Origin: an uncultured Chloroflexia bacterium | Lineage (GTDB): Bacteria > Chloroflexota > Ktedonobacteria > Ktedonobacterales > Ktedonobacteraceae | Direction: 5' to 3' | Assembly (NCBI GenBank): GCA_963744875.1 | Contig: CAVUVQ010000050.1 | Coordinates: 77,330 to 141,329, forward strand | Length of the DNA: 64,000 nt | Shown: positions 36,812 to 49,301 of the stretch, in pieces | Position numbering within the stretch: position 1 is the stretch's first letter | How the letters are laid out: each line of letters starts with the position of its first letter | Translations under genes and position numbers: made by a program | The notes under the pieces: model-generated | Seen by the model: the letters and a program-made list of their open reading frames with translations, nothing else | The model's database searches: none | What the model was told of the DNA's origin: nothing

Positions 36812-37204
36812 TTATGGAAAGTCATTCTTGAAATTATTTATATCAAGATGACTTATGATATCTCGTGAGAAAAGGTATGGTAAGCATATTCTCCTACCAG
36901 TTGCATCCTGGTCTACCCTCGAAGGATGGGCCACCCTCGAAAGACGGTCCACCGAAACAGGATGGGTCACCCTCGAAAGATGGTTCACCAAACAAGATGG
37001 TCCACCCTCGAAAGACGGTCCACCGAAACAGGATGGGCCACCATAGCCAAAGAAGGGGTATCCACCGGTATCCCGGTCATTGTGACGCCAGCGATGATGA
37101 CCCCAATCATTGTCATCATGCTCACCTCTCCACCCACCAACGACGTTTTTCAGATCACTATCATTCAGTTCGAAGGCTATGACCTGCTCTTCATTTAAAT
37201 TCAT
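36812..37204 (-). CDS. Double-glycine-leader precursor peptide (bacteriocin/RiPP/pheromone-like) with Gly-Pro-Ser-Cys/Phe hexapeptide repeat core; 3' part probably frameshifted
   Basis: GAAAGGAAAC precedes ATG 37204. The leader MNLNEEQVIAFELNDSDLKNVVGG fits the double-glycine consensus (L-12, D-8, L-7, V-4, G-2, G-1). The core is WRGEHDDNDWGHHRWRHNDRDTGGYPFFGYGGPSCFGGPSFEGGPSC... As given, the ORF runs to 36812. Restoring one missing nt near 36989/36990 keeps the repeat register and ends the ORF at TAG 36894-36896. Confidence 0.65.
   Translation of the reverse strand: MNLNEEQVIAFELNDSDLKNVVGGWRGEHDDNDWGHHRWRHNDRDTGGYPFFGYGGPSCFGGPSFEGGPSCLVNHLSRVTHPVSVDRLSRVAHPSRVDQDATGRRICLPYLFSRDIISHLDINNFKNDFP
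36910..37034. repeat. Seven tandem 18-nt units (one unit only 17 nt) inside the precursor peptide gene
   Basis: Units start at 36910, 36928, 36946, 36964, 36982 (17 nt: GGTTCACC-AAACAAGAT versus GGTCCACCGAAACAGGAT), 36999 and 37017. On the minus strand they encode alternating G-x-P-S-C-F and G-x-P-S-F-E. Confidence 0.9.
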
Positions 37205-37533
37205 GTCAACAGTTTCCTTTCTTCTTACAAGAGAGAACAGCAATGAGTATCTCTTGTATCATTGATCAGGTGCGGAAAGCGTTTACATAAATATATCATA
37301 CATTTTTCTCTTTTACCATCTTATCGTATCCACGAAGTCTATATTAATATATCCTCTGTATACGTCTTTGAGTGCACCTATATTTATTATACTCGCAGGT
37401 GTATAAATAGGAAACAAAGTATTTTTTAAGGGGAGGTAGAATGCCCCAAAAGAGAGGTTGATTTGCGTTTCTTTCAACTATCCATTATAGTAAATCAATA
37501 GTATTGCAACAAAAAGGATATTTTTAAAAGCGT

Positions 37534-44243: not shown

Positions 44244-47200
44244 CTACATTTGGGATTCCAACGGCAACGCAAAGAAAAAGGTGCTCCCCTGACCAGGTTT
44301 ACTTTCCAGCCACATGCGACCCCCGTGCTGCTTCACGATGTTATGAGAGATATAAAGGCCCAGACCCAGACCATCAACTGACCCTTGCATATCGGCATGC
44401 ACACGGTAAAAACGTTCAAAGAGGTGCACCTGGTCTTCCGCCTCAATACCATCCCCCTCATCACACACTGCTACAACAACTTCGTTGCTGGCAGGTCGTC
44501 GTTCTACCGTTACCTCAATGGGGCTTCCAGCAGGGCTATACTTGTCAGCATTGCTCAGCAGGTTATTCAAAACCTGTTCTATGCGATCCTTATCCGCAGT
44601 TATCAGAATGGCTTCTTCACCAATTTGCACAGAGACAGGATGCTTTTGCAATGCTTGCTGATCAACAACGCTACGAACCAACTCCACTAAATCAACATTT
44701 TCCTGCTTATGCAACTCGAAGATTTCCCCCTGGAGACGAGTGACATCCAGCATGTCAGTGACAAGACTATTCATATTGCTAAGTTGGTGGAGAATACGCT
44801 CGATCTGGGTAAGGCTCTGGTCGAGATGCTGCTCACGCGTCTGGGCCTGACCAAGAGAAGTGGTATGCCTTATTAAAGTTCGCTGCAAAAGCTGGGTATT
44901 TGCCTGAATAGTAGTTAGAGGAGAACGTAACTCATGCGCTACTAATGAAAGAAAATCATCTCTCATCAGTTCAATCTGTTCGAGGTTTTTGCGTGCACTT
45001 ACCTGCTCCGTGATCTCCACAGCAGAAACGAGCATGTAGCGCACAGCATCCAATTCTGTATCGATAATGGCGGTGAGGTTATAATCCCAGACCGTTGCAG
45101 ATCCATCTCCCGCAAACGAAAGGGTAAGCTCCGGAATACGGAACGTAGCACGATCCTCGACCACTCTTTTCCAGGTCAGTATAGGATCTTCGTCGGGCAG
45201 CAGTAATGGCATCTCCTGCCAGGTATGACCTGGGACGCTATCTGGAGCTGCTTGATGCGCCTGGGCAACCAGTTCAAGATAACGCGGACTTCCCATCAGT
45301 AATGCCTCAGTCCGCCCATCATAAAGAGCCAATGCCACGGTTCGCGTATTAGCAAAGACCGTTTTGAGCTGGGCGAGTTCCTCCTGGAGTTCCTGCGCAT
45401 GCTGCTCCGTCTCATCTGACGCGTAGATGATCACGCCATCCACGCGGCCTGAAGCGTTATGAGAAGGGACAAGCGTATACGAAAAATAGCCTTCCTTTTG
45501 CTCATCTGATACCTTACTTTGTGTCCCAGGTATAATAGTACGAATACGCGATAACGTTTTTGGCAATTCTTTCACGTAAACTTCACGCGCAAGGTGCATT
45601 AAAGCAAAACCTGCCTTCGGTTCCCAGAACAGATTGATCACGTCCTCTAACGCGTGCCCCTGGACACTCGCTTCTTCCAATAAACGCGCATAGCGCGGAT
45701 TGTATGCTTCGACCACCAGAGCAGGACCACGCAAAACAAGAATATAAAATGGTGCGAACTCCACCATCTCGGAGAGGCGTACATGCTCATTCTCCAGGGA
45801 GGTCGTCAGTTCTTGCAGTTCACTGGTGCGAGCACGTAGTTCATCGTTGGTCGTCTCTAACTCCTCATTGGTGGCCTGCAACTCCTCGTTATTTGTTTCC
45901 AGCTCCTCGTTGGTCGCTTGCAACTCCTCGTTGGTCGTTTCAAACTCCTCAATACTTGCCTGTAACTCCTCGTGTGTTAACATGAGTTCCTCGTTGGCAA
46001 CTTGCAACTCTTCGTTGGCATCCATAAGCTCTTTATTCATATCGCTCAGGCGTTTGTTAGCTGTACTCAGCTCTTGCATCAACTGCAACTGTTCACTGTG
46101 GACACTCTCCAATTGGCGACGGATATGGACCTGATCAGTTACATCGCTGATACTGATCGCTGCAAGATCCGGTAAACTGGCATCCAGTTGCATTACGGCG
46201 ATAGAGAGACTCACAAAGCGTCCATTGCCACCCGCGGATACTTCAAGTTCTACTTCTGGCAAAGTAATAGAATTGCGCTCACGGAAAACCGTATCGATAG
46301 CCGCACGCGTCCCATGATAAGGAATACCATGCACCGTGTGCAAAAAATCCTGATCTATAGCAACATCACGTAGACCAAGCAAACGACGAGCAGAATTGTT
46401 GGCAGTCAAGATATGGTAGGTACGATCGATAATTATGACACCAAGAGGAAGAAAACGCAGCAGAAGCTCGTTGAAACGACGCAGTTGCCCCAACTCCAAC
46501 GAGAGAGATAACGGCTCCTGCTGATCCGCATGTGTTCTTCCTGATGATCGCAGTGAGCGATCCATAACGTTCCTCTCCTGCGAAGGTGCTTTTTTCTCCG
46601 AAAGACTACGTTGATTGGCTGAAGGAAGCGCATTACCAATACAGCGATATATTTTCCAGAGCTTATTCTCCAGCATGTAAAATAACTGCGCAGGGCGTAC
46701 CGTTTCCGCTTTCCCTAGAAAGAGAAATCCATTGGGATTGAGAGAAAAGGCAAACTGATTGAGCACATAATCCTGTAGTTCGGCTGTAAAATAGATCAAA
46801 ACATTGCGGCAGAGCACCAGGTCTATATGCGGAAAAGGGGCACTATGGCTAAGATCTTGCCGTCCAAATATGACCATTTGCCGCAGCGTTTTTGAAATGC
46901 GATAGCCATGATCGACCCGTTCAAAGAACCGCTCCTGATAATCACGTGGCACTCCTTTGAGCAGATTCTCGGAATAGATCCCACGCCGGGCGAAGGTAAT
47001 TGCAGCTTCATCTAGATCTGTTGCAAAGATCTTGATACTCCATTCGGGCAGTTCCACACTCAGAAGATCTGTGAGCAGCATTGCAAGTGAATAAGGTTCT
47101 TCCCCTGTTGCACAGCCTGCCGTCCAGAAGCGCAAGACGTGATCACGCTGGCGGCCATCCGCAATTAAAGCAGGCAAAATATCACTTCTAAGATAGGCAA

Positions 47201-48059
47201 AGGCATCAGCATCACGAAAAAACTGCGTGACATTGATGAGAAAAGCCTTGACTAGCTCGCCTACCTCCTCAGGATGAAGCCTCAGATAATTTGCGTATTC
47301 CTGGATAGTCTTATTATGCGTCACAGTCATGCGTCGACCGACACGACGCAGAATAGTCGACGTTTTGTAGGGATGAAAATCAATACTCGCCTGTTGACTC
47401 ACCAACTCAAGAATATCGTGCAAAACATCCTCGGTTCGCTCCTCTGTCAGCGGAATATTCACGCCATTTAGCAATTCATACAGCAACGGGCCAATACGTT
47501 CAATATTCACTTCAAAATCGATGATGGTGGGAGGAAGTGCTAGCGGCATAGAGGGATAACGCGCTGTCTGAGGATCCTGCACAATAACGGTTCCACCTGC
47601 ATTTTTTACGTCGACCGCGCCCGCAGCCCCATCCGACCCGGAACCAGTCAAAATAACCGCAATCAGGTGCTCTCCATAGGATTCAGCAGCAGAGGAGAGC
47701 AGGGTATCGACAGAGGGACGGGGCCGCTTCTTGCGATCCTCCATCAAATAGACATGGTGATCCCTTATAGAAACATGACGATTTGCAGGTACGACATAAA
47801 TTCGACCCGGATACAATTTTGTATTCTCTTGCACAATCTCAACGACCAGGTTGGTACGTTTTCGCAATATAATATCAAGTGAACTGGGACGATTGGGGTC
47901 AAGATGTTGTGCCAGTACCAGGGGCGCTGGAAAGTCTTCAGGCAAGGTACTCACCAGAATGGAGAGCGCTTCAATACCTCCTGCTGAAGAGCCAACTACG
48001 ATCAGATCACTCGATTGAACAGTATCTTGCTCAATAGTATCTTGCTCAATAGTATCCAC
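44244..48059 (-). CDS. CheB methylesterase-CheR methyltransferase fusion joined to PAS, heptad coiled coil, PAS, HisKA and HATPase_c (1271 aa)
   Basis: CheB domain: VVGSSAGGIEAL...LTGSGSDGA.G...K.AGG.VIVQDP. CheR domain: FFRD...F..L...ILP......R.WTAGCATGEEPYSLAML...IFATD.D..A...AR.G.Y ... CRNVLIYF. Eleven heptads of xxEELxx follow (residues about 680-756). The kinase core has VAHELRSPLTT, LLSNADKYSP, DEGDGI and GLGLGLYI. Confidence 0.9.
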   Translation of the reverse strand: MDTIEQDTIEQDTVQSSDLIVVGSSAGGIEALSILVSTLPEDFPAPLVLAQHLDPNRPSSLDIILRKRTNLVVEIVQENTKLYPGRIYVVPANRHVSIRDHHVYLMEDRKKRPRPSVDTLLSSAAESYGEHLIAVILTGSGSDGAAGAVDVKNAGGTVIVQDPQTARYPSMPLALPPTIIDFEVNIERIGPLLYELLNGVNIPLTEERTEDVLHDILELVSQQASIDFHPYKTSTILRRVGRRMTVTHNKTIQEYANYLRLHPEEVGELVKAFLINVTQFFRDADAFAYLRSDILPALIADGRQRDHVLRFWTAGCATGEEPYSLAMLLTDLLSVELPEWSIKIFATDLDEAAITFARRGIYSENLLKGVPRDYQERFFERVDHGYRISKTLRQMVIFGRQDLSHSAPFPHIDLVLCRNVLIYFTAELQDYVLNQFAFSLNPNGFLFLGKAETVRPAQLFYMLENKLWKIYRCIGNALPSANQRSLSEKKAPSQERNVMDRSLRSSGRTHADQQEPLSLSLELGQLRRFNELLLRFLPLGVIIIDRTYHILTANNSARRLLGLRDVAIDQDFLHTVHGIPYHGTRAAIDTVFRERNSITLPEVELEVSAGGNGRFVSLSIAVMQLDASLPDLAAISISDVTDQVHIRRQLESVHSEQLQLMQELSTANKRLSDMNKELMDANEELQVANEELMLTHEELQASIEEFETTNEELQATNEELETNNEELQATNEELETTNDELRARTSELQELTTSLENEHVRLSEMVEFAPFYILVLRGPALVVEAYNPRYARLLEEASVQGHALEDVINLFWEPKAGFALMHLAREVYVKELPKTLSRIRTIIPGTQSKVSDEQKEGYFSYTLVPSHNASGRVDGVIIYASDETEQHAQELQEELAQLKTVFANTRTVALALYDGRTEALLMGSPRYLELVAQAHQAAPDSVPGHTWQEMPLLLPDEDPILTWKRVVEDRATFRIPELTLSFAGDGSATVWDYNLTAIIDTELDAVRYMLVSAVEITEQVSARKNLEQIELMRDDFLSLVAHELRSPLTTIQANTQLLQRTLIRHTTSLGQAQTREQHLDQSLTQIERILHQLSNMNSLVTDMLDVTRLQGEIFELHKQENVDLVELVRSVVDQQALQKHPVSVQIGEEAILITADKDRIEQVLNNLLSNADKYSPAGSPIEVTVERRPASNEVVVAVCDEGDGIEAEDQVHLFERFYRVHADMQGSVDGLGLGLYISHNIVKQHGGRMWLESKPGQGSTFFFALPLESQM

Positions 48060-48248: not shown

Positions 48249-49301
48249 CTATGGCTCTAACGAAGCTGAATCAACATCTTTCAAAGCAGGAATTTCTTTT
48301 CGTGTGAGCACCTGGCGCAATAAAATTGCACGTTGTTCTGCCTCCTGTACCCTGACATTCAGACGCTCCGCAAGCCATCCATGCCCGTTCTGTAAGGCCT
48401 GCTTTGCCATACGACGCGAAAGGCTGGCGTTCTCGTCCAGCGTTTTTAACGCAACCCATAACGCCTGCTCAATCTTCTCGGTTTGCTCCGCAAGGGCGCT
48501 ATCAGGTGAGAATGCATGCCCCGTACGGCAACGAAAGCGCGTCAGCTCATCATCATGCAATTCCCACAATACACCACCACATTCTGGACAAGAATACGCC
48601 GATGGACTCCCTACCTGTTCATTCTCACTCAATGGATTTGTCTCCATTTCAGCAATTCTCACTTCTCGCTTCATATCCTCTGAAGCTGAGGGAATATTTT
48701 CTTGCACAATCTCCTCACGAGCCAATTGCGCCAGGGTCAACCCTATCTGGGCAAGTGGTAAACAATAATCAACATTTACATGAGCCAGTGCACTTTTCGG
48801 CATATCGGGATAGAGGGCATTTGTTGGGTCTTGCACGACCGCTACTCCACCACGCTGTTTAATAGCAAGCAACCCGGCAGTGCCATCGTCCAACGAGCCT
48901 GTCAACACTACACCAATAACCTGTGAACCATAAGCAACGGCTGCAGAACGGAAGAGAGGATCAATGGCTGGCCGATGACGGTTCTCCCTGGGGCCTCGCA
49001 CAACTCGCATAAACCCACTCTCGATGAGCAAATGATGATCTGGTGACGCAACATAAATACGTCCACGCTCGATCCGCTGATAATCTACAGGTTGCTCTAC
49101 TTTTATAAAAGTAGAGCGATTGAGAATTTCAGCCAATAGGCTGGGACTCTGCGCTGGAATATGTAATACAATGAAGACACTGGCTGAAAAGTTCACCGGG
49201 AATTCACGTACTACTTGTATGAGCGCTTCCACACCACCCGCAGAAGCCCCTACAACGATGATTTCATGTCCTGACACAAAAATCTCCCCTCCTGACATCA
49301 T
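48249..49301 (-). CDS. CheB-type protein-glutamate methylesterase domain protein with C-terminal zinc-ribbon/helical extension (no receiver domain)
   Basis: IIVVGASAGGVEAL ... HIPA.SPS.LAEIL ... VVLTGSLDDGTAGLLAIKQRGGVAVVQDP, then CPECGGVLWE...FRCRTGHAFS. It lies directly upstream of, and on the same strand as, the CheB-CheR kinase. Confidence 0.8.
   Translation of the reverse strand: MMSGGEIFVSGHEIIVVGASAGGVEALIQVVREFPVNFSASVFIVLHIPAQSPSLLAEILNRSTFIKVEQPVDYQRIERGRIYVASPDHHLLIESGFMRVVRGPRENRHRPAIDPLFRSAAVAYGSQVIGVVLTGSLDDGTAGLLAIKQRGGVAVVQDPTNALYPDMPKSALAHVNVDYCLPLAQIGLTLAQLAREEIVQENIPSASEDMKREVRIAEMETNPLSENEQVGSPSAYSCPECGGVLWELHDDELTRFRCRTGHAFSPDSALAEQTEKIEQALWVALKTLDENASLSRRMAKQALQNGHGWLAERLNVRVQEAEQRAILLRQVLTRKEIPALKDVDSASLEP

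What the first reader, a model, noticed from the sequence alone, without database searches (positions are those of the whole stretch)
45780..46097. CheB-CheR-kinase fusion contains its own candidate methyl-accepting segment: 11 heptads of xxEELxx with EE-x-x-A-S/T motifs
Seen in sequence:
- Between the two PAS regions the protein reads ANEELQV ANEELML THEELQA SIEEFET TNEELQA TNEELET NNEELQA TNEELET TNDELRA RTSELQE. This is an exact 7-residue (21-nt) period.
- EELQAT occurs twice and EELQAS once.
- No MCP, CheA or CheW gene is present in the window.

Established knowledge: the classical chemoreceptor methylation consensus is Glu-Glu-X-X-Ala-Ser/Thr on a coiled coil.

Inference: the fused methyltransferase/methylesterase pair may reversibly methylate this internal coiled coil (in cis or within a dimer) to tune the C-terminal kinase. 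That would be a self-contained adaptation module independent of chemotaxis arrays. The architecture itself is known from databases. To my knowledge the substrate is not.
Basis: partly seen in the sequence, partly recalled or inferred. Interest (0 to 1): 0.62.

Follow-up and report, generated by a model that had tools for sequence, protein, structure and literature searches.

The report
Candidate self-methylated helix in CheB-CheR kinase
A soil-bacterium sensor kinase is fused to the two enzymes that normally methylate and demethylate chemotaxis receptors, and it also contains a very acidic, almost unchanging helix with a glutamate pair every seven residues; comparative evidence makes this helix the most likely built-in target of those enzymes, but methylation has not been shown.

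Summary
Window 44244-48059 (minus strand) encodes a 1271-aa protein: CheB, CheR, PAS, helix, PAS, PAS, HisKA, HATPase. Residues 681-743 are nine in-register heptads [T/A/S]-N-E-E-L-x-x, with net charge -20. AlphaFold predicts one unbroken 128-residue helix (641-768) between two PAS folds.

The helix is the hallmark of the whole CheB-CheR fusion family.
- All full-length members among 150 diverse representatives carry it.
- Its Glu pairs are as invariant as the catalytic residues.
- It has 0 amino-acid changes against 20 synonymous changes versus the closest relative.
- In 51 genomes, all 47 NEEL-helix loci lie 600-750 nt downstream of a CheR domain.
- 18 of 50 fusion-bearing genomes have neither MCP nor CheW.
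- The one coil-less fusion I found has a degenerate CheR motif.

The self-methylation idea is therefore well supported by comparison, but it is biochemically untested.

Caveats:
- The helix is not MCP-like in fold and fails the full 10-residue MCP site consensus.
- The invariant Asn is unexplained.
- This particular genome has seven MCPs and no canonical CheB, so MCPs cannot be excluded as substrates here.

I found no publication on this helix. The family itself is known from databases (KEGG-style name "CheB/CheR fusion protein").

The parts
44244..48059 (-). Gene for the 1271-aa CheB-CheR-PAS-helix-PAS-PAS-HisKA-HATPase_c fusion protein (GTG start)
   Evidence: ORF list and translation; Pfam domains; 120 full-length homologs at 60-85% identity in Ktedonobacteria-like records
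47487..48002 (-). CheB methylesterase catalytic domain (residues 20-191), with no receiver domain in front; Ser25/His52/Asp143 align to the Ser164/His190/Asp286 triad
   Evidence: Pfam PF01339, E=4e-48; alignment to PDB 1a2o/1chd/3sft; S25, H52 and D143 nearly invariant or invariant in alignment A1
46683..47417 (-). CheR methyltransferase (CheR_N 215-261 plus SAM-binding domain 276-459), with GCATGEEPYS, ATDLD and CRNVLIYF motifs intact
   Evidence: Pfam PF03705/PF01739; full-length alignment to PDB 5ftw and 1bc5; invariant R310, W312, G315, G319, E320, D348, C417, R418, N419
46464..46682 (-). Poorly conserved, low-complexity linker of about 70 residues (460-532) that tethers the CheB-CheR module to PAS-A and the helix
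   Evidence: 39% amino-acid differences versus the closest relative; 0 of 73 columns conserved across the family; low pLDDT at the start of the model
46125..46463 (-). PAS-A domain (residues about 533-645)
   Evidence: Pfam PAS_8; AlphaFold PAS fold at residues 540-639
45756..46139 (-). Single uninterrupted alpha-helix, residues 641-768 (about 18 heptads, Leu at every 'a' position)
   Evidence: AlphaFold2 with a 22-sequence alignment: helix at 122-249 of the 520-900 construct, pLDDT 94-97 in the core
45831..46019 (-). Acidic heptad core, residues 681-743: nine [T/A/S]-N-E-E-L-x-x heptads with 21 acidic and 1 basic residue (net -20). This is the candidate methyl-accepting segment.
   Evidence: 0 amino-acid versus 20 synonymous changes against L017; 40% of columns at least 90% conserved across the family; invariant E704, E705, E711, E712, N717, E718, E719, E725, E732, E733
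45966..45971 (-). Glu697-Glu698 (EELQAS): strict match to the classical E-E-x-x-A-S/T half-site
   Evidence: Sequence; motif count
45924..45929 (-). Glu711-Glu712 (EELQAT): strict half-site match; both Glu invariant in the family
45882..45887 (-). Glu725-Glu726 (EELQAT): strict half-site match
45399..45755 (-). PAS-B domain (residues 769-887) directly after the helix
   Evidence: Pfam PAS_4, E=9e-16; AlphaFold PAS fold at 772-882
44256..44963 (-). Histidine-kinase core: HisKA (1033-1111, H-box HELRSP with His1042) and HATPase_c (1156-1268)
   Evidence: Pfam; H-box located; PDB matches to HK853-type kinases
48249..49301 (-). Upstream co-directional gene for a 350-aa receiver-less CheB-like methylesterase with a C-terminal zinc-ribbon (CPECGG...CRTGH) and helical tail; a possible accessory of the system
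   Evidence: Pfam/NCBIfam recognise only the CheB domain. Its tail is found inside the fusion ORF, between CheB and CheR, in L018/L019/L029, and next to the fusion in L033/L034/L089. A CheB gene also lies upstream of a 77%-identical relative (L116).

Best explanation
The protein is a cytoplasmic sensor histidine kinase of the widespread CheB/CheR-fusion family. Its 128-residue helix between PAS-A and PAS-B most likely forms a parallel two-stranded coiled coil in the kinase dimer. The register is Leu at 'a', a small residue at 'd', Asn at 'e', and Glu-Glu at 'f' and 'g'.

The nine central heptads carry about -20 charge per chain with no compensating basic residues, so the coil is electrostatically strained. 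I propose the following mechanism.
- The CheR domain, held nearby by a flexible linker of about 70 residues, methylates some of these glutamates with SAM. The prime candidates are the second Glu of the EELQA[ST] heptads: E698, E712 and E726.
- The receiver-less CheB domain removes the methyl esters.
- The methylation level would neutralise charge, alter coil stability or register, and so bias signal transfer from PAS-A to PAS-B and the kinase core. This would be a built-in, receptor-free adaptation or memory element.

Shown here: the domain content, intact catalytic motifs, the helix prediction, extreme conservation, strict coupling to CheR, and the existence of the family without MCPs.

Inferred: dimeric coiled-coil geometry, methylation of the helix, which residues are modified, and the effect on kinase output.
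For: 1. Domains and catalytic residues are intact.
2. The helix is a family hallmark. 131 of 150 diverse CheB-CheR representatives, found with a query that did not include the helix, have at least 5 in-register acidic heptads. The other 19 are fragments or frameshifted calls.
3. The Glu pairs are as invariant as catalytic residues. The helix core is the most conserved segment: 40% of its columns are at least 90% conserved, against CheR 25%, CheB 13%, and PAS and kinase about 0%.
4. Protein-level selection is strong: 0 of 63 amino-acid changes against 20 synonymous changes versus the closest relative.
5. Coupling is strict. All 47 NEEL-helix loci in 51 genomes lie 600-750 nt downstream of a CheR domain on the same strand, and the reversed-pattern control gave 0 hits. 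In the own genome the helix is unique to this gene.
6. 18 of 50 fusion-bearing genomes have no MCPsignal hit above the family cut-off (17 have no hit at all, one only a sub-threshold hit) and none of the 18 has a CheW hit. These include all Bacteroidota but one (the Ferruginibacter genome G045) and all Verrucomicrobiota sampled. A non-MCP substrate must therefore exist.
7. The only coil-less CheB-CheR-PAS kinase found (L103) has lost the invariant CRNVxIYF motif of CheR.
8. The half-site [EQ][EQ]xx[ASTG][ASTG] occurs in 52% of family heptads, 76 times its density elsewhere in the same proteins.
9. Methylated glutamates spaced 7 residues apart, including non-consensus pairs, are documented for FrzCD (PMC2535941).
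10. The disordered linker gives the enzymes a tether comparable to the pentapeptide tether of Tar/Tsr. The pentapeptide tether is established knowledge; its application here is inference.
Against: - There is no direct evidence of methylation. Seven literature searches found no study of this helix.
- The helix is predicted as one straight helix, not the antiparallel hairpin bundle on which CheR and CheB are known to act.
- No MCPsignal homology was detected.
- The full 10-residue MCP consensus, as I recall it from Alexander and Zhulin 2007 (paper not held), is met by only 1% of heptads.
- The near-invariant Asn at 'e' is not explained by a methylation model.
- CheB lacks a receiver domain, so the classical phospho-feedback is absent.
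- In this genome there are 7 MCPs. The two CheA/CheW clusters have no CheB or CheR of their own, and no canonical receiver-CheB was found. The genome is only 84.6% complete. The fused enzymes could therefore also or instead serve those MCPs.
- Most MCP-less genomes are MAGs of unknown completeness.
Confidence: 0.52

Rival explanations
1. The helix is only a signal-transmitting and dimerising coiled-coil linker between PAS domains. The fused CheR/CheB act on other proteins: MCPs where present, or other unknown targets.
For: - Long helical linkers between PAS domains and kinase cores are common (established knowledge).
- AlphaFold predicts a plain continuous helix.
- This genome has 7 MCPs, and no canonical CheB/CheR sits next to its CheA/CheW clusters.
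- The full MCP site consensus is not met.
Against: - Structural coiled coils do not normally keep their solvent-exposed f/g residues invariant across 13 or more phyla while the flanking PAS domains drift freely.
- The helix never occurs without CheR in 51 genomes.
- 18 of 50 host genomes have no MCP or CheW at all.
- A net charge of -2 per heptad with no salt bridges is the opposite of what stabilises a purely structural coil.
Confidence: 0.25
2. The helix is a docking surface or pseudo-substrate. It binds the active sites of the fused, or free, CheR/CheB to hold or regulate them, or it recruits a partner such as the neighbouring CheB-zinc-ribbon protein. There is no productive methyl turnover on the helix itself.
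For: - The same coupling and conservation data as the main model.
- An extra CheB-like gene lies next to the fusion here and in some relatives.
- MCP-less Bacteroidota also carry small stand-alone CheR-like ORFs.
Against: - Both enzyme domains keep complete catalytic motifs under strong selection. This is hard to explain without a real substrate, and in MCP-less genomes no other candidate substrate is evident.
- The CheB-zinc-ribbon tail is not basic (net +1), so simple electrostatic docking on the acidic helix is not indicated.
Confidence: 0.12
3. The polyanionic helix is itself a sensor of cations, pH or polyamines, and its conservation reflects ligand binding unrelated to the fused enzymes.
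For: Net charge of -20 over 63 residues, and regularly spaced Asn/Glu side chains that could coordinate ions. This is inference only.
Against: It does not explain the strict co-occurrence with CheR, nor the loss of the CheR motif in the coil-less member. No known ion-binding motif was detected.
Confidence: 0.05

Closest known systems
Adaptation (methylation-helix) region of methyl-accepting chemotaxis proteins with free CheR and CheB (E. coli/Salmonella Tar, Tsr)
   Same: - The same two enzyme families, with intact catalytic residues.
- Glu-Glu pairs repeated at 7-residue spacing on an acidic helix.
- E-E-x-x-A-S/T half-sites.
- An enzyme held near its substrate by a flexible tether. In Tar/Tsr this is the C-terminal pentapeptide; here it is covalent fusion through a linker of about 70 residues.
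   Different: - No MCPsignal domain, no hairpin four-helix bundle, and no CheA/CheW interaction tip.
- One straight helix between two PAS domains.
- 9 potential sites (5-11 in the family) instead of 4-6.
- An invariant Asn before each Glu pair.
- The full 10-residue site consensus is not met.
- CheB has no receiver domain.
- The output is a classical HisKA kinase in the same polypeptide.
Database family 'two-component system, chemotaxis family, CheB/CheR fusion protein' (KEGG K13924-type; CheB_methylest + CheR_N + CheR + PAS)
   Same: This protein is a typical member. It has the same domain order, the same spacing from CheR to the helix (median 253 residues from the CRNVxIY motif), and the same heptad consensus.
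   Different: The family is only an annotation label. In the papers I could search it appears only in gene lists, and no function or substrate is described. This member carries a fused HisKA/HATPase output and a PAS_4-type PAS-B, where many members have PAS_10.
FrzCD/FrzF of Myxococcus xanthus (cytoplasmic MCP methylated by a CheR fused to a regulatory TPR domain)
   Same: A cytoplasmic methyl-acceptor; methylated Glu at 168, 175 and 182, which is heptad spacing and includes non-consensus pairs; a CheR carrying an extra domain that controls site choice (PMC2535941).
   Different: FrzCD is a true MCP that signals through a CheA (FrzE). Enzyme and substrate are separate proteins.
Coiled-coil 'signalling helix' linkers of PAS/GAF sensor kinases
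   Same: A long helix joining sensor domains to the next module in a dimeric kinase, with heptad periodicity.
   Different: Those linkers are short (about 40-50 residues) and variable in surface residues. The S-helix carries an E-R-T signature (from my memory of Anantharaman et al. 2006), which is not present here. This helix is 128 residues long and has invariant surface Glu pairs.

Membership tests
CheB/CheR fusion protein family (K13924-type) | CheB_methylest domain without a receiver, with the Ser-His-Asp triad | tested here: met
   PF01339 at residues 20-191, E=4e-48, with only 19 residues in front. S25, H52 and D143 align to S164, H190 and D286 of 1a2o.
CheB/CheR fusion protein family (K13924-type) | CheR_N plus the CheR SAM-dependent methyltransferase domain directly after CheB | tested here: met
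   PF03705 at 215-261 and PF01739 at 276-459. Full-length alignment to 5ftw and 1bc5 with conserved SAM motifs.
CheB/CheR fusion protein family (K13924-type) | PAS domain, then an acidic N-E-E-L heptad helix, then a PAS domain, about 250 residues after the CheR core (a feature I derived here from the family) | tested here: met
   for the family; for this protein.
Methyl-accepting chemotaxis protein (MCP) | MCPsignal domain (PF00015) with the conserved hairpin tip that binds CheA/CheW | tested here: not met
   No PF00015 hit at E<=0.01.
Methyl-accepting chemotaxis protein (MCP) | Antiparallel helical hairpin forming a four-helix bundle in the dimer | tested here: not met
   AlphaFold predicts one unbroken helix at 641-768 flanked by PAS folds. 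This is a monomer model, so the oligomeric packing was not tested.
Methyl-accepting chemotaxis protein (MCP) | Methylation-site consensus: Glu-Glu-x-x-Ala-Ser/Thr, and the extended [ASTG][ASTG]xx[EQ][EQ]xx[ASTG][ASTG] (recalled from the literature; source paper not held) | tested here: inconclusive
   This protein has 3 strict EExxA[ST] sites, and 5 of its 9 heptads fit the relaxed half-site. In the family, 52% of heptads fit the half-site but only 1% fit the full 10-mer.
Methyl-accepting chemotaxis protein (MCP) | Glutamates actually methylated by CheR and demethylated by CheB | not testable with these tools
   This needs biochemistry or mass spectrometry. No report was found in 7 literature searches.
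HisKA-type sensor histidine kinase | HisKA dimerisation/phospho-acceptor domain with an H-box His, plus the HATPase_c catalytic domain | tested here: met
   PF00512 at 1033-1111 and PF02518 at 1156-1268; H-box HELRSP at 1042; PDB matches to HK853-type kinases, E=1e-32.
S-helix (signalling helix) linkers | A coiled coil of about 40-50 residues with a conserved E-R-T signature (from memory) | tested here: not met
   The helix is 128 residues long and residues 641-768 contain no E-R-T triad.

The most novel reading that the evidence does not exclude
Reversible glutamate methylation is not confined to chemoreceptors. The N-E-E-L heptad helix would be a second, receptor-independent class of CheR/CheB substrate. 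Together with the fused writer (CheR) and eraser (CheB), it would form a portable multi-site (5-11 Glu pairs) adaptation or memory module. That module is built into thousands of cytoplasmic sensor kinases in at least 13 bacterial phyla, including lineages with no chemotaxis machinery at all.
Probability: 0.45. Interest if true: 0.8.

Novelty: new variant of a known kind. Interest (0 to 1): 0.62.

Why it matters
CheR/CheB methylation is the textbook mechanism of sensory adaptation, and to my knowledge its substrates are chemoreceptors. The CheB/CheR fusion family is very large: 5183 clusters (90% identity) passed E<=1e-10 among the 8000 candidates scored. It is spread over at least 13 phyla and is present in bacteria that have no chemoreceptors, yet I found no substrate or function reported for it.

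If the invariant acidic helix is the substrate, ordinary two-component kinases would have a covalent, multi-level memory of past stimulation. That would be a new regulatory layer for two-component signalling. It would also be a simple, soluble, single-polypeptide system in which to study methylation-based adaptation without membrane arrays.

The hypothesis is directly testable with one recombinant protein, SAM and mass spectrometry.

Tried and rejected
1. MCP-like hairpin. Rejected: AlphaFold gives one continuous helix, and the Leu register runs unbroken for about 16 heptads.
2. Homology to MCPs. No PF00015 signal.
3. Coil-less family members as a refutation. The 19 apparent cases among 150 representatives are contig-end fragments, or frameshifted gene calls whose tails are an out-of-frame reading of the coil DNA.
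4. Stand-alone helix-PAS proteins. Short hits in the 5.8-billion-protein set are fragments on 1-3 kb contigs, frameshift-split genes (L115, L116) or a 5'-truncated relic (P0368).
5. A dedicated Pfam family for the helix. PF28175, seen in precomputed lists, is T4SS_LegC2C7 and hits only weakly or faintly, which is coiled-coil noise. The local Pfam gives only sub-threshold coiled-coil matches. PF28159 and PF24161 are not in the local library, so I could not read them.
6. The CheB-zinc-ribbon tail as a basic docking arm for the acidic helix. Rejected: its net charge is +1.
7. A recent DNA repeat or assembly artefact. Rejected: the units differ at synonymous sites while the protein is identical in relatives.
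8. Literature. Seven full-text searches (NEELQ, CheBR, CheB-CheR fusion, K13924, Pfam names, glutamate methylation plus kinase) gave only annotation lists. Opened papers (PMC2829493, PMC2147049, PMC5108060, PMC2577667, PMC10101095) do not deal with this helix. Alexander and Zhulin 2007 is not held, so the extended consensus is from memory.
9. A second structure job to look for CheR docking on the helix was not run, because the tool returns no coordinates or contact map.
Full report
**What is there.** The finding lies inside a 3816-nt gene on the minus strand (44244-48059) that encodes a 1271-aa protein. Pfam gives this order:
- CheB_methylest, 20-191
- CheR_N, 215-261
- CheR, 276-459
- PAS_8, 533-573
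- an unassigned coiled-coil stretch, about 646-759
- PAS_4, 769-887
- HisKA, 1033-1111
- HATPase_c, 1156-1268

The sequence there is as quoted. Nine consecutive heptads have an acidic pair followed by Leu or Phe: ANEELQV ANEELML THEELQA SIEEFET TNEELQA TNEELET NNEELQA TNEELET TNDELRA (residues 681-743). More heptads on both sides keep the same Leu register. EELQAT occurs twice and EELQAS once. Tandem Repeats Finder sees the 21-nt period and a 42/84-nt super-period.

**Organism and genome context.** The closest homologs are from Ktedonobacteria (Chloroflexota). The window is contig C50 of a 7.3-Mb, 84.6%-complete assembly.
- No MCP, CheW or CheA lies in the window. The genome has 7 MCPsignal hits and two CheA/CheW clusters on other contigs.
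- Those clusters have no CheB or CheR beside them.
- The only CheB-type hits in the genome are the fusion, a second receiver-less CheB-like gene directly upstream of it (48249-49301, with a zinc-ribbon and helical tail), and a pseudogene fragment.
- The only other CheR is an orphan 475-aa ORF on C20.

So for this organism I cannot exclude that the fused enzymes also act on MCPs.

**The enzymes look active.** Ser25, His52 and Asp143 align with the Ser164/His190/Asp286 triad of Salmonella CheB. The CheR part aligns end to end with B. subtilis and Salmonella CheR and keeps the SAM-binding motifs. In a 34-sequence alignment of diverse family members these residues are invariant or nearly so. CheB has no receiver domain.

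**Structure of the segment.** AlphaFold2 was run on residues 520-900 with a 22-sequence alignment taken from related loci. It predicts a PAS fold (540-639), one unbroken helix of 128 residues (641-768, pLDDT 94-97 in the heptad core), and a second PAS fold (772-882).
- The heptad logo over 132 proteins and 1126 heptads is: d = T/S/L/A, e = Asn (68%), f = Glu (85%), g = Glu (89%), a = Leu (80%), b = Gln/Glu, c = Ala/Thr/Ser.
- The core has 21 acidic residues and 1 basic residue, net -20. The family median is -2 per heptad.
- This is not an MCP-like hairpin. The likely form is a parallel coiled coil in the kinase dimer, which is an inference.

**Family-wide tests.** I searched 1.84 billion cluster representatives with only the CheB-CheR part (residues 1-500), so that presence of the helix would be an unbiased read-out.
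- Of the 150 best representatives (34-72% identity), 131 have at least 5 in-register acidic heptads about 250 residues after the CheR core.
- The other 19 are fragments that end before or at the helix, or frameshifted calls whose tails show a 7-residue periodic out-of-frame reading of the helix DNA.
- In alignment A1 the invariant columns of the whole protein include E704, E705, E711, E712, N717, E718, E719, E725, E732 and E733, alongside the CheR and CheB motifs.
- By segment, 40% of helix-core columns are at least 90% conserved. The figures are 25% for the CheR domain, 13% for CheB, and about 0% for the PAS and kinase domains.
- Against the closest relative with DNA in hand (L017), the 63 core codons show 0 amino-acid changes and 20 synonymous changes. 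CheB, CheR and PAS differ at 11-19% of residues.

This is far stronger constraint on solvent-exposed positions than a structural linker needs.

**Coupling to CheR.** A DNA pattern for three perfect N-E-E-[L/F] heptads was run over 51 genomes, about 270 Mb. It found 47 distinct loci in 34 genomes, and the reversed control found none. Every one of the 47 lies 600-750 nt downstream of a CheR domain hit on the same strand.
- In the window's own genome, the fusion is the only six-frame ORF with two or more consecutive such heptads.
- Long CheR-containing ORFs that missed the perfect pattern mostly carry a slightly relaxed helix.
- One real exception is a 1665-aa CheB-CheR-PAS-kinase-receiver protein in a Cyclobacteriaceae MAG (L103). 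It has no such helix, and the invariant CRNVxIYF motif of its CheR reads CTEVFSH.

I did not find that. The single helix-less case has a decayed CheR, which is what the hypothesis predicts, though it is one case only.

**Independence from chemoreceptors.** The family is found in at least 13 phyla. In 50 fusion-bearing genomes, 18 have no MCPsignal hit above the family cut-off: 17 have no hit at all, and one has only a sub-threshold hit. None of the 18 has a CheW hit. They include all but one of the Bacteroidota sampled, all three Verrucomicrobiota, and single Acidobacteriota, Dehalococcoidia, Bauldia, deltaproteobacterial and Syntrophomonadaceae genomes. Most are MAGs of unstated completeness, but the pattern follows taxonomy and the genomes are 2-7 Mb. 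A non-MCP substrate must therefore exist for the family.

**Resemblance to MCP methylation sites.** The classical half-site E-E-x-x-A-S/T is met three times in this protein. A relaxed form [EQ][EQ]xx[ASTG][ASTG] is met in 5 of its 9 heptads and in 52% of family heptads, which is 76 times the density elsewhere in the same proteins. The extended 10-residue consensus fails in 99% of heptads, because the position four residues before the pair is Gln or Glu. I recall that consensus from Alexander and Zhulin 2007, which the library does not hold. Documented MCP sites are themselves loose and heptad-spaced: FrzCD is methylated at E168, E175 and E182, including an HE pair (PMC2535941). So the helix works like a methylation helix on paper, but it is not a member of the MCP family (no PF00015, no hairpin).

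**Mechanism I consider most likely (confidence about 0.5).**
- CheR and CheB are tethered by the poorly conserved linker of about 70 residues.
- They write and erase methyl esters on the Glu pairs of the strained polyanionic coiled coil.
- This changes its stability or register, and so changes coupling between PAS-A and PAS-B and the kinase.
- With no receiver on CheB, feedback would have to come from conformation-dependent access of the enzymes to the helix.

All of this beyond domain content, conservation and co-occurrence is inference.

**Rivals.** The rivals are a plain signalling linker with the enzymes acting elsewhere (0.25), a docking or pseudo-substrate surface (0.12), and an ion or pH sensor (0.05). 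The unexplained invariant Asn and the straight-helix geometry are the main points against a simple MCP analogy.

**Is it known?** Seven full-text searches and several opened papers turned up the family only as an annotation label (KEGG-type 'CheB/CheR fusion protein') in gene lists. No solved structure covers the helix. Subscription journals are largely outside the library, so prior work cannot be excluded.

Earlier AI notes of this scan describe the same helix in many other genomes and reach the same untested hypothesis. I treated them as leads only. My tests of coupling, MCP-less genomes, selection and structure were run independently here.

**Verdict.** The protein is an ordinary member of a known but uncharacterised family. 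The proposed substrate relationship would be a new variant of CheR/CheB adaptation.

Noticed in passing
window 48249-49301 (-): A 350-aa receiver-less CheB-like methylesterase with an unannotated C-terminal zinc-ribbon (CPECGG...CRTGH) and helical tail lies 190 nt upstream of the fusion, in the same direction. Its tail domain sits inside the fusion ORF, between CheB and CheR, in Pyrinomonadaceae (L018, L019) and Paraburkholderia (L029). It is a neighbouring gene in L033, L034 and L089. It is absent near the closest relative L017.
   Followed up: partly
L103:2536-7530 (+) (Cyclobacteriaceae MAG, G030:C27): A CheB-CheR-PAS-kinase-receiver protein without the NEEL helix. Its CheR reads CTEVFSH where the family has the invariant CRNVxIYF, and its CheB nucleophile motif reads GVSAGN. 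The same genome has four helix-bearing paralogs.
   Followed up: partly
G006:C102, G013:C187, G017:C29, G025:C33, G030:C23, G047:C286 and C315: Bacteroidota genomes with no MCP or CheW also carry small stand-alone CheR-like ORFs (276-311 aa). These likewise lack a known substrate.
   Followed up: no
own genome C2:571000-581500 and C34:398800-401800; C20:465857-467284: The two CheA/CheW(/MCP) clusters have no CheB or CheR next to them, a layout reminiscent of cyanobacterial Tax/Pix clusters. A lone 475-aa CheR-like ORF sits beside a Ser/Thr kinase gene.
   Followed up: partly
window 36812-37243 (-): A 143-aa ORF begins with a double-glycine-type leader (…ELNDSDLKNVVGG) followed by a Gly/Pro/Cys-rich repeat core, which suggests a RiPP or bacteriocin-like precursor. 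Another agent of this scan has already followed it up.
   Followed up: no
L117:5001-5501 (P0368): In another Ktedonobacteria genome, a 166-aa relic keeps only the last three heptads plus PAS-B of a fusion gene. It sits between unrelated genes and looks like a 5'-truncated remnant.
   Followed up: partly
P0154, P0172, P0202, P0211 (metagenome gene calls): Frameshifted calls of family members end in a 7-residue periodic 'QRGxAGx' tail. This is the NEEL helix DNA read in the wrong frame, and it can serve as a marker of such errors.
   Followed up: yes
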